Origin: Photorhabdus heterorhabditis
GTDB taxonomy: Bacteria > Pseudomonadota > Gammaproteobacteria > Enterobacterales > Enterobacteriaceae
Assembly (NCBI RefSeq): GCF_018448905.1
Contig: NZ_RCWA01000021.1
Span: forward strand, 5,178-37,177
Direction of reading: 5' to 3'
DNA length: 32,000 nt
The position numbers and the translations under genes were made by a program. Below are positions 23,804 to 24,055 of the stretch, one piece after another (the stretch's first letter is position 1; the number at the start of each line of letters is the position of its first letter). The notes under the pieces were generated by a model. That model was not told where the DNA came from and made no database searches. It saw nothing but the letters and a program-made list of their open reading frames with translations.

Positions 23804-24055
23804 ATGAGGATCTTACGGCGACTGGCAGAACAGTCCCCGAGGTATGAGGAGGTACTGGTGACAATAGCACAAAGATTGGAACATAAAGCACGTCAAGAAG
23901 GACGTCAGGAAGGACGTCAAGAAGGGCGTCAGGAAGGGCGTCAGGAAGGACGTCAAGAAGCAACGTTAAAAATTGCTCATGCATTGCTGAACAGCGGAAT
24001 CGATTGTGAAACAGTGATGAAAACCACCGGTCTGAGCCAGAGTGAGCTTGAATAA
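23804..24055 (+). CDS. Orphan duplicate of the Rpn C-terminal (RpnS-like) region
   Basis: 23816-24042 repeats 23496-23733 nearly base for base but with one fewer 12-bp unit (5 QEGR). The internal AGGAGG SD is kept, with GTG at 23858 replacing the ATG. An upstream ATG at 23804 is also in frame. There is no nuclease domain. Confidence 0.55.
   Translation: MRILRRLAEQSPRYEEVLVTIAQRLEHKARQEGRQEGRQEGRQEGRQEGRQEATLKIAHALLNSGIDCETVMKTTGLSQSELE
23891..23962 (+). repeat. 12-bp tandem repeat, 6 units, in the orphan copy
   Basis: It has the same unit as 23571-23654 with one unit fewer. The order of synonymous unit variants differs. Confidence 0.95.

What the first reader, a model, noticed from the sequence alone, without database searches (positions are those of the whole stretch)
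23816..24055. Orphan second copy of the RpnS-like region immediately downstream of rpn, with a different repeat number and ATG->GTG start
23816-24042 duplicates 23496-23733 almost exactly. That covers the last ~80 codons of rpn, including the internal AGGAGG. The copy has 5 rather than 6 QEGR repeats, a different order of synonymous unit variants, GTG instead of ATG at the internal start (23858), a few substitutions (CEIVM->CETVM, QNELEQIHH->QSELE*), and an alternative upstream ATG (23804).

A free-standing antitoxin-like copy with an altered dimerisation-helix length could have several origins or roles:
(a) a spare or decoy antitoxin;
(b) a donor or relic of recombination that changes repeat number in the full-length gene;
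(c) an antitoxin for a different Rpn paralogue.
I do not know of a described case of a tandem stand-alone RpnS, but I cannot search.
Basis: partly seen in the sequence, partly recalled or inferred. Interest (0 to 1): 0.7.

Follow-up and report, generated by a model that had tools for sequence, protein, structure and literature searches.

The report
Second RpnS antitoxin copy after rpn
Just downstream of a Photorhabdus rpn nuclease-toxin gene sits a free-standing second copy of its small internal antitoxin gene, an arrangement already described in E. coli (rpnE-ypaA, "RpnSs"), so this is a new example of a known kind rather than a new kind of element.

Summary
Window 23816-24043 repeats 23496-23735, the 3' end of a 316-aa rpn gene. 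Identity is 222/228, one 12-nt unit is missing (5 versus 6 QEGR tetrads), and the internal ATG is GTG at 23858.

Zhong et al. 2023 (PNAS, PMC10400941) named this arrangement RpnSs. E. coli K-12 ypaA lies downstream of rpnE and its protein was detected. A similar copy follows rpnC in some strains. They also report loss by deletion or by fusion. K-12 YpaA differs from RpnE-S by one tetrad, as here.

The copy is conserved in position in at least 8 Photorhabdus genomes. Downstream modules follow 23 Photorhabdus rpn loci, and all keep a GAGGAGG ribosome-binding site and an ATG or GTG start. The product matches the RpnA-S crystal structure 7TH0 by sequence and by predicted fold.

The conserved start is 23858, not the ATG at 23804. 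GTG also occurs in two P. bodei-like genomes.

Repeat number equals that of the neighbouring RpnL in only 2 of 23 loci. By the published RpnC experiment, the copy is therefore probably not a cognate antitoxin for its neighbour. Its function is untested.

Verdict: new member of a known kind, with modest interest.

The parts
22809..23759 (+). rpn gene (RpnL, 316 aa), a PD-(D/E)XK recombination-promoting nuclease and the toxin of the system
   Evidence: Pfam Transposase_31 E=1.9e-91. NCBIfam TIGR01784 Rpn family 221.9 bits against a cut-off of 52.1. D11, D63, E82, Q84 and PDDEI are present at the RpnA catalytic positions (sequence; residues defined in PMC5350276).
23526..23532 (+). GAGGAGG Shine-Dalgarno of the internal translation start (iTIS), 5 nt before ATG 23538
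   Evidence: Sequence. Identical in all Photorhabdus rpn paralogues examined.
23538..23759 (+). intragenic RpnS reading frame (73 aa, 6 QEGR tetrads), the cognate antitoxin by analogy with E. coli RpnS
   Evidence: Concept and experiments in PMC10400941.
23571..23651 (+). 12-nt tandem repeat array in rpn/rpnS (units A B C A C D plus a partial unit)
   Evidence: TRF period 12, 7.2 copies. Unit order.
23760..23815 (+). 56-nt spacer between the rpn stop codon and the start of the duplication. No terminator and no consensus sigma-70 promoter were found.
   Evidence: The spacer is conserved in orthologues.
23816..24043 (+). duplicated segment (copy of 23496-23735), beginning 42 nt upstream of the start codon
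   Evidence: 222/228 identical, one 12-nt gap.
23846..23852 (+). GAGGAGG Shine-Dalgarno of the downstream copy, 5 nt before GTG 23858
23858..24055 (+). rpnSs-type gene: 65-aa free-standing RpnS paralogue (GTG start, 5 QEGR tetrads, C-terminus ...QSELE*)
   Evidence: phmmer hit to PDB 7TH0 RpnA-S, E=6e-5. AF2 model shows a long helix 3-46 plus two short helices. Foldseek top hit is 7TH0, prob 1.0. Orthologues carry Pfam PF27070 HTH_Rpn_C. The position is conserved in L001-L004, L010, L082 and L083.
23891..23959 (+). 12-nt tandem repeat array of the downstream copy (units A B C D B plus a partial unit)
   Evidence: TRF period 12, 6.2 copies. Unit order.
24131..24146 (.). GC-rich hairpin GCGCC-N6-GGCGC between the convergent rpnSs and lectin genes. 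It is a strong intrinsic terminator for the minus-strand lectin gene (followed by T7) and a weak one for the plus strand.

Best explanation
The segment is an rpnSs gene, a free-standing second copy of the RpnS antitoxin module of the adjacent rpn toxin-antitoxin/defence gene.

Origin: it arose by tandem duplication of the rpn 3' end, starting 42 nt upstream of the internal start so that the ribosome-binding site was carried along. This happened in an ancestor of several Photorhabdus species.

Expression (inferred): there is no terminator between rpn and the copy and no recognisable promoter of its own. It is therefore most likely co-transcribed with rpn/rpnS and translated from GTG 23858 behind a perfect GAGGAGG site.

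Product: a 65-aa three-helix HTH_Rpn_C protein. Its long first helix, the dimerisation and specificity helix, carries five QEGR tetrads, one fewer than the neighbouring RpnL/RpnS.

Repeat dynamics: the 12-nt arrays in the two copies change independently by slippage and by exchange between the copies. Homologous recombination between the copies can delete the interval and fuse the nuclease domain to the Ss tail.

Function (inferred): a single-tetrad mismatch abolished neutralisation in the published RpnC experiment. The copy is therefore probably not a redundant cognate antitoxin for its neighbour. It is best seen as an expressed, length-shifted RpnS paralogue that is also raw material for recombination.

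What is shown: duplication, conservation, SD and start, homology, fold. What is inferred: transcription, translation, weak binding to the neighbour.
For: Duplication and repeat difference.

Identity of the upstream gene as an intact Rpn nuclease.

Identity of the product as RpnS-like:
- phmmer to 7TH0, E=6e-5.
- AF2 pLDDT 77 with helices 3-46, 50-57 and 61-64.
- Foldseek best PDB hit 7TH0, prob 1.0, TMt 0.77.
- Homologues are mostly 49-113-aa proteins with PF27070 HTH_Rpn_C.

Precedent: RpnSs/ypaA is described, and YpaA was detected as a protein (PMC10400941). The K-12 rpnE-ypaA duplication starts at the SD, and YpaA has one extra tetrad.

Conservation:
- The same locus with an intact Ss occurs in L001, L002, L003, L004, L010, L082 and L083.
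- All 23 Photorhabdus loci with an intact downstream module keep the SD and an ATG or GTG start.
- GTG is shared with L082/L083 and with an unrelated module in L030.
- pN/pS of the Ss orthogroup is 0.22, similar to 0.18 for the intragenic RpnS.

Recombination: L009 is a fusion with the Ss-type 3' end, and there are truncated remnants in L006, L007, L008 and L038. The window's two arrays share the A-B-C unit prefix, whereas the orthologous Ss arrays are only 1-2 units long.

No terminator and no promoter in the spacer.
Against: There are no expression data for this organism. GTG is a weaker start than the ATG found in most orthologues.

RefSeq annotates E. coli ypaA as a pseudogene.

The module has been lost or truncated in several paralogous or orthologous loci, so it is dispensable.

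The low pN/pS could be maintained by gene conversion from the selected intragenic copy rather than by selection on the Ss protein. Divergence is also low (pS about 0.08), which gives little power.

The prediction of poor binding to the neighbouring RpnL rests on one published experiment with a different paralogue (RpnC plus or minus 1 tetrad). It was not modelled or tested here.
Confidence: 0.8

Rival explanations
1. Neutral relic. The copy is a by-product of tandem duplication or recombination at a recombination-prone nuclease gene. It has no function of its own. Its open frame and ribosome-binding site persist only because the duplication is young or is repeatedly overwritten by gene conversion from the functional intragenic copy.
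For: - Lost, truncated or fused in L006, L007, L008, L009 and L038.
- The start is weakened to GTG in the window and in L082/L083.
- No promoter of its own.
- Repeat number matches the neighbour in only 2 of 23 loci, which is what random pairing gives (1.6 expected).
- ypaA is annotated as a pseudogene in RefSeq.
- The leader and tail are almost identical between the L and Ss copies within and between species, as expected under concerted evolution.
Against: - The ORF, SD and start codon are intact in 23 loci from many species. These include strongly diverged modules (for example the 'IAD' type), which cannot be maintained by conversion from their neighbour.
- pN/pS is 0.21-0.22.
- The Ss-specific C-terminus QSELE* is retained across at least 7 genomes.
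- E. coli YpaA is made as a protein (PMC10400941).
Confidence: 0.25
2. Specificity cassette. The downstream module is kept as an alternative C-terminal cassette with a different helix length or tail. Recombination with rpn then swaps or resets the repeat number and C-terminus of RpnL and RpnS together. This would diversify the specificity of the toxin-antitoxin pair under phage pressure.
For: - L009 shows that recombination between the copies yields a full-length Rpn carrying the Ss-type tail and a new repeat number.
- The window's Ss array (A B C D B) shares the first three units with its own L array (A B C A C D). The orthologous Ss arrays are only 1-2 units long (A D, A, D A, A A, D). This suggests exchange between the copies.
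- Lengths differ in 21 of 23 loci.
- Zhong et al. speculate that RpnL may itself drive such recombination (Discussion).
Against: The only recombinant seen is a deletion or fusion, which destroys the cassette and is a one-way event. There is no direct evidence of non-reciprocal conversion into rpn. No population data exist. The unit-order argument rests on a handful of synonymous variants.
Confidence: 0.15
3. Antitoxin in trans for another Rpn. The 5-tetrad product neutralises a different RpnL with a matching helix length. That RpnL could be a paralogue elsewhere in the genome or one arriving on a mobile element or phage, in which case the copy would act as an anti-addiction module.
For: - It is mismatched to its own neighbour.
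- Photorhabdus genomes carry several rpn paralogues each. For example, retrieved 3 loci for P. australis and 6 for P. khanii.
- The commentary PMC10400984 stresses that repeat number sets trans-specificity.
Against: Among the paralogues retrieved from the closest genome (P. australis DSM 17609: L022, L023, L026), none has a QEGR-type helix with 5 tetrads. The census was limited to the best 80 loci of one scan, so this is not exhaustive.
Confidence: 0.1

Closest known systems
RpnSs: E. coli K-12 ypaA (rpnE-Ss) downstream of rpnE, and rpnC-Ss in some E. coli strains (Zhong et al. 2023, PNAS, PMC10400941)
   Same: It is a same-strand, immediately downstream, free-standing copy of the rpn C-terminal RpnS module, derived from its own upstream gene. 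The duplication includes the SD. The start is 'MTIA(E/Q)RL'. The tetrad number differs by one from the intragenic copy: K-12 YpaA has +1 and the window has -1. The copy can be lost by deletion or by fusion, as seen here in L006-L009.
   Different: The spacer is 56 nt rather than 12 nt. The duplication starts 42 nt rather than 14 nt before the start codon. The start is GTG. The tetrad is QEGR. The C-terminus is 4 residues shorter than the family norm (…SELE*). The upstream nuclease has all catalytic residues, whereas E. coli RpnE is annotated as inactive. In Photorhabdus the arrangement is the majority state (23 of about 37 loci), with up to two downstream modules.
Intragenic RpnS antitoxins of rpnA-E and plasmid RpnP2 (genes within genes)
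   Same: Same protein domain (HTH_Rpn_C, three-helix bundle, PDB 7TH0), same SD and start arrangement, and the same hypervariable tetrad repeats in helix 1.
   Different: It is not nested in the toxin gene, so it is freed from the obligatory co-variation of repeat number with RpnL. Its antitoxin activity has not been demonstrated.
Orphan or solo antitoxin genes of type II TA systems (for example chromosomal anti-addiction modules)
   Same: It is a small antitoxin-like gene without a toxin partner of its own, and it might act in trans.
   Different: Here the copy sits directly beside a complete toxin-antitoxin gene of the same family and derives from it. No trans target was identified.

Membership tests
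Rpn / YhgA-like PD-(D/E)XK nuclease (RpnL) - upstream gene 22809-23759 | Transposase_31 (PF04754) / TIGR01784 domain above the curated threshold | tested here: met
   PF04754 E=1.9e-91, 305.6 bits against a cut-off of 21. TIGR01784 221.9 bits against 52.1.
Rpn / YhgA-like PD-(D/E)XK nuclease (RpnL) - upstream gene 22809-23759 | Catalytic residues equivalent to RpnA D11, D63, E82 and Q84, plus the PDDEI motif | tested here: met
   Translation: D11 (PHDAVF), D63 (YSDILY), E82-H-Q84 (VIEHQS) and IPDDEIL. Residues are as defined by mutagenesis in PMC5350276.
Rpn / YhgA-like PD-(D/E)XK nuclease (RpnL) - upstream gene 22809-23759 | DNA endonuclease activity and toxicity relieved by RpnS | not testable with these tools
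   Needs an experiment.
RpnS / HTH_Rpn_C (PF27070) small protein - ORF 23858-24055 | Sequence homology to a characterised RpnS | tested here: met
   phmmer against the PDB: 7TH0 (RpnA-S), E=6e-5, residues 27-64. NCBIfam TIGR01784 matches its C-terminal positions 219-271, E=3.5e-12.
RpnS / HTH_Rpn_C (PF27070) small protein - ORF 23858-24055 | Pfam HTH_Rpn_C domain hit | tested here: inconclusive
   The local Pfam-A copy returned no PF27070 hit for either protein, so the model appears to be absent from it. Precomputed PF27070 hits exist for the orthologue P0005 and for most homologues.
RpnS / HTH_Rpn_C (PF27070) small protein - ORF 23858-24055 | Compact three-helix fold with a long first helix | tested here: met
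   AF2 helices H3-46, H50-57 and H61-64, mean pLDDT 77. Foldseek top PDB hit is 7TH0, prob 1.00, TMt 0.77, although E is only 0.03 for this very short protein.
RpnS / HTH_Rpn_C (PF27070) small protein - ORF 23858-24055 | Variable four-amino-acid repeats beginning 8-20 residues after the initiating Met | tested here: met
   The tetrads start at residue 12 (MTIAQRLEHKA|RQEG...). Their number varies from 1 to 5 among the Ss orthologues. The criterion comes from PMC10400941.
RpnSs (downstream second copy, ypaA type) | Separate ORF immediately downstream of rpn on the same strand, with its own SD and start codon | tested here: met
   56-nt spacer, then GAGGAGG, 5 nt, and GTG 23858. The start is GTG rather than ATG, as also in L082, L083 and L030.
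RpnSs (downstream second copy, ypaA type) | Derived from, and clustering with, the RpnS of its own upstream gene | tested here: met
   97.4% nucleotide identity to the adjacent rpn 3' end. The leader and tail differ by only 1 and 1 positions.
RpnSs (downstream second copy, ypaA type) | Protein is synthesised | not testable with these tools
   Only comparative support is available: conserved SD, start and ORF in 23 loci, and pN/pS 0.22. E. coli YpaA was detected by SPA tag (PMC10400941).
Cognate antitoxin of the adjacent RpnL | Same number of tetrad repeats as the RpnL it neutralises (RpnC +/-1 repeat experiment) | tested here: not met
   5 versus 6 tetrads. The requirement comes from PMC10400941 Fig. 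4D. Whether it holds for this paralogue is untested.

The most novel reading that the evidence does not exclude
The downstream RpnSs modules are deliberately kept out of register with the adjacent RpnL. They are mismatched in 21 of 23 Photorhabdus loci, in E. coli K-12 and in Edaphovirga. No pair with near-identical flanks has an equal number. On this reading they act as a stored alternative specificity cassette or a trans-acting regulator. Recombination with rpn would reset the tetrad number and tail of the toxin-antitoxin pair, making this a built-in diversification device for a defence system rather than a spare antitoxin.
Probability: 0.15. Interest if true: 0.6.

Novelty: new member of a known kind. 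Interest (0 to 1): 0.3.

Why it matters
In itself this adds a Photorhabdus example to the published RpnSs class.

The comparative data collected here add three points:
- Downstream RpnS modules are the majority state in Photorhabdus rpn loci, and some loci carry two of them.
- They almost never share the tetrad number of the neighbouring toxin. By the published specificity rule, this argues against a simple 'extra dose of antitoxin' role.
- Natural fusion and truncation products document recombination between the copies.

The function of RpnSs proteins was not tested in the founding paper. These loci therefore offer a convenient natural series: 1 to 5 tetrads against 2 to 7 in the partner. They could be used to ask whether RpnSs proteins bind, buffer or diversify Rpn toxins.

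Tried and rejected
- Exact-sequence look-ups of the window's Rpn and of the 83-aa ORF found nothing on record. The closest genome locus, L026 (P. australis DSM 17609), is masked with N exactly over the region of interest, so it gave no repeat counts.
- The local Pfam library gave only sub-threshold, repeat-driven hits for the orphan (DUF2802, Yae1_N). I rejected these as low-complexity matches. The FliH and Wmk hits in NCBIfam are likewise far below their cut-offs.
- The promoter scan found no plus-strand sigma-70 consensus in 22600-24300. A TTGAGA-17-AACGAT candidate in the spacer scores only 8/12, so I make no claim for it.
- Rfam found no family in the whole window.
- The supplementary files of Zhong et al. 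are not held. Their Fig. S3 and S6 data on RpnSs repeat numbers could not be checked.
- I considered recoding (frameshift or read-through) joining rpn to the copy and rejected it. The copy is in frame +2 relative to rpn in the window but in frame 0 in L005, so there is no conserved frame relationship.
- The antisense ORFs across the repeats (for example 23787-23984, minus strand) are repeat-generated and have no support.
- The dN/dS analysis has low power (pS about 0.08) and is confounded by possible gene conversion.

Full report
**1. Observation**

The window contains a 316-aa ORF at 22809-23759 (+). It is an Rpn/YhgA-like nuclease: Pfam Transposase_31 at E=1.9e-91 and NCBIfam TIGR01784 'Rpn family recombination-promoting nuclease' at 221.9 bits.

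Its last 240 nt (23496-23735) recur at 23816-24043. The repeat finder, MAFFT and a global alignment agree on 222 matches, 6 mismatches and one 12-nt gap.

- ATG to GTG at 23538/23858.
- Two synonymous changes in repeat units.
- ATA to ACA (Ile to Thr) at 23704/24012.
- Divergence at the 3' end, giving QNELEQIHH* in rpn and QSELE* in the copy.

Tandem Repeats Finder reports period-12 arrays of 7.2 and 6.2 copies. That corresponds to six versus five QEGR tetrads. Written as synonymous unit variants, the arrays are A B C A C D and A B C D B. GAGGAGG sits 5 nt before both start codons.

**2. What the product is**

Translated from the 23858 codon, the copy encodes 65 residues. The evidence that it is RpnS-like is as follows:
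- phmmer against all PDB chains finds one significant match, 7TH0, 'Recombination-promoting nuclease RpnA' (the RpnA-S crystal structure), at E=6e-5 over residues 27-64.
- An AlphaFold2 model built on 46 homologues (alignment A2) has mean pLDDT 77. It shows one long helix (3-46, containing the tetrads) followed by two short helices.
- Foldseek against the PDB returns 7TH0 as the top hit (prob 1.00, TMt 0.77). The E-value is only 0.03, as expected for such a short chain.
- A search of the 5.8-billion-protein collection with the 65-aa product gave 639 hits. The best 120 are almost all small proteins of 49-113 aa carrying Pfam PF27070. A later look-up names this family HTH_Rpn_C.

These small proteins occur in Photorhabdus, Salmonella, Erwiniaceae, Pantoea, Edwardsiella and Vibrio.

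**3. The upstream gene looks active**

D11, D63, E82, Q84 and the PDDEI motif were shown by mutagenesis to matter in RpnA (PMC5350276). All are present at the same positions in the window's protein (translation).

**4. Literature**

Zhong et al. 2023 (PNAS, PMC10400941) established the following:
- rpn genes are toxin-antitoxin/defence genes.
- The small C-terminal RpnS is translated from an internal start.
- RpnS blocks the full-length nuclease RpnL.
- The first helix of RpnS carries hypervariable four-residue repeats.
- Adding a single repeat to RpnC-S or RpnC-L abolishes neutralisation unless both partners carry it.

The same paper describes exactly the arrangement in this finding:
[quoted passage not shown] The protein was detected after SPA tagging.
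- A similar rpnCSs occurs in some strains.
- Each downstream copy clusters with its own upstream RpnS.

The paper did not test whether RpnSs proteins neutralise anything. A further literature search found no later work on this point.

I retrieved the K-12 locus and compared it. The results were:
- ypaA starts 12 nt after the rpnE stop.
- The duplication begins at the SD (AAGGAG), 14 nt before the ATG.
- YpaA (MTIAERLRQEGHQIGWQEGKLEGLHEQ...) has one more tetrad than RpnE-S (…GWQEGMHEQ...).

So even the one-tetrad offset has a precedent. RefSeq annotates ypaA as a pseudogene.

**5. Relatives**

A scan of one genome per species returned 80 loci, and L001-L038 are all Photorhabdus. The window is closest to P. 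australis DSM 17609 (L026). That locus is 99-100% identical over the nuclease domain, but its copy of the region is masked with N.

Loci that share the window's downstream flank (…QSELE* MSDKITVFLPNTTIYF…) are orthologous. Their tetrad counts (RpnL / downstream copy) are shown below.

| Locus | RpnL tetrads | Ss tetrads | Ss start |
|---|---|---|---|
| window | 6 | 5 | GTG |
| L001 P. namnaonensis | 6 | 2 | ATG |
| L002 P. cinerea | 6 | 1 | ATG |
| L003 P. noenieputensis | 4 | 2 | ATG |
| L004 P. temperata | 7 | 2 | ATG |
| L010 P. kayaii | 2 | 1 | ATG |
| L082, L083 (two P. bodei-like assemblies) | 6 | 2 | GTG |

Three conclusions follow:
- The GTG start is not a private lesion of the window.
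- The ATG at 23804 is not conserved. It is AAG in L003 and L010, and a stop codon lies just upstream of it in frame in L002 and L004. The conserved start is therefore the 23858 codon, although some annotators used the upstream ATG (P0005, P0006).
- The window's five-tetrad array is unusually long for this orthogroup. It shares its first three units with its own RpnL array, which suggests exchange between the copies or local expansion.

**6. Recombination and decay**

- L009 (P. caribbeanensis) has a single copy. Its 5' part matches the RpnL type of its close relative L010, and its 3' end is the Ss type (…QSELE*). This is the product expected from homologous recombination between the two direct repeats.
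- L006 retains only MTIAQRLEHKNA*.
- L007, L008 and L038 keep fragments of the Ss tail.

These match the loss routes described by Zhong et al.

**7. The arrangement is general in Photorhabdus**

Of the full-length Photorhabdus loci, 23 carry at least one intact downstream module. L022, L027 and L035 carry two. Every module keeps GAGGAGG (rarely GAGGAAG, or a weaker GGGGGA in L020) 5-6 nt before ATG, or before GTG in the window, L082 and L030.

One strongly diverged module type (…KIVYAMIDNGIDHETIIKIIVMSRSKIEQIAD) is found only free-standing in this sample.

Outside the genus:
- Edaphovirga (L050) has a downstream copy with one extra tetrad.
- Klebsiella sp. (L051) has a diverged copy.

Nei-Gojobori counts on the non-repeat codons give the following pN/pS values:
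- 0.22 for the Ss orthogroup.
- 0.18 for the intragenic RpnS.
- 0.21 for RpnS compared with its own Ss across nine loci.

This is compatible with protein-level constraint. Divergence is low, however, and gene conversion could mimic constraint.

**8. Repeat mismatch**

I measured the length from the start codon to the conserved L-K-I-A motif. It equals that of the adjacent RpnS in only 2 of 23 loci (L024, L035). Random pairing of the same values gives 1.6 matches on average. The downstream copy is shorter in 15 loci and longer in 6.

There is thus no sign of selection to keep the second copy in register with the neighbouring toxin. Pairs with almost identical flanks (window, L010, L013, L017, L022, L027) all differ by one to three tetrads.

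Given the RpnC experiment, the simplest inference is that the window's five-tetrad product is a poor partner for the six-tetrad RpnL. [quoted passage not shown] This is an inference by analogy and was not tested here.

**9. Expression signals**

No terminator-like hairpin lies between the rpn stop and the copy. No plus-strand sigma-70 consensus was found in 22600-24300.

A GC-rich hairpin at 24131-24146 follows the copy. It serves mainly as the terminator of the convergent lectin gene. Co-transcription with rpn or rpnS is therefore the most economical reading.

Rfam finds nothing in the window.

**10. Verdict**

The finding is real and correctly recognised as a second RpnS copy. It belongs to the published RpnSs class, so it is a new member of a known kind.

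The best-supported account has five parts:
- Tandem duplication of the rpn 3' end, including its ribosome-binding site.
- Co-transcription with rpn.
- Translation from GTG 23858 into a three-helix HTH_Rpn_C protein.
- Independent slippage of the two 12-nt arrays.
- Occasional recombination between the copies.

Three roles remain open: a non-cognate modulator, a trans-acting antitoxin, or mainly a recombination substrate or relic. The comparative data lean against 'spare cognate antitoxin'. They give some support to the recombination reading. They give no support to a matching paralogue in the closest genome: L022 and L023 do not match, although that census is incomplete.

**11. Context**

The locus lies just after core genes (comEC, msbA, lpxK, kdsB, mukFEB). 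It sits in a small variable stretch with:
- a RES-domain ORF;
- a frameshifted phd/yefM-like antitoxin;
- a hemopexin/PA-IIL lectin;
- a tail-collar-domain protein.

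Noticed in passing
window 22421-22662 (+): A phd/yefM-like antitoxin gene (Pfam PhdYeFM_antitox, E=4e-9) is split over two reading frames by a 2-nt insertion (AA near 22530). The comparison is with the intact 79-aa orthologue in L082 1620-1859. 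No partner toxin gene is adjacent. It is either a pseudogene or a sequencing error.
   Followed up: partly
window 20835-21518 (+) and 21557-22177 (-): A RES-domain ORF (toxin-like, E=3.6e-14) is followed by a convergent 206-aa ORF with no Pfam hit. Together with the phd-like gene and rpn, this makes a small cluster of toxin-antitoxin-type genes just after mukB.
   Followed up: no
window 24178-25254 (-) and 25260-26060 (-): A 358-aa protein combines hemopexin repeats with a C-terminal PA-IIL fucose-binding lectin domain. The adjacent 266-aa protein has a phage tail-collar domain. Both are conserved next to rpn-rpnSs in L082 and L083, but at only about 89% nucleotide identity, against 98% for rpn.
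   Followed up: no
L022 4085-4596, L027 4108-4674, L035 4035-4550 (also L032): Some Photorhabdus rpn genes are followed by two free-standing RpnS modules in series. The first is a near copy of the intragenic RpnS. The second is a strongly diverged type.
   Followed up: partly
L025 4096, L027 4453, L028 4039, L030 1953, L035 4341 (variants in L022 4411, L029 4068): A divergent module type ending …KIVYAMIDNGIDHETIIKIIVMSR(S/N)KIEQIAD occurs only as a free-standing downstream gene in this sample. It is never the C-terminus of a full-length Rpn. Its pN/pS is about 0.5.
   Followed up: partly
L009 3730-3903; L006 4038-4076; L007 3952-4137; L008 4028-4096; L038 3901-4086: These are natural recombination and decay products of the two-copy arrangement. 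L009 is a fusion of rpn to the Ss-type 3' end. The other four loci carry truncated remnants of the downstream module.
   Followed up: yes
L050 (Edaphovirga cremea) about 767-1330; L051 (Klebsiella sp. MISC125) about 3682-4190; L081 (E. coli K-12 rpnE-ypaA) 1405-2502: Downstream RpnS copies also occur outside Photorhabdus. The Edaphovirga copy and E. coli YpaA each carry exactly one more tetrad than the intragenic RpnS.
   Followed up: partly
window, L010, L013, L017, L022, L027 (RpnS/Ss pairs with near-identical flanks): Among the most recently homogenised pairs, none has equal repeat numbers; the differences are 1-3 tetrads. This could reflect slippage that is faster than point mutation, or selection against a matched second copy. 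It is unexplained.
   Followed up: partly
L026 (P. australis DSM 17609, NZ_KL543985.1) about 3780-4090: The genome-collection copy of the closest relative is masked with N exactly across the repeat arrays and the duplication. Its repeat numbers could not be read.
   Followed up: no
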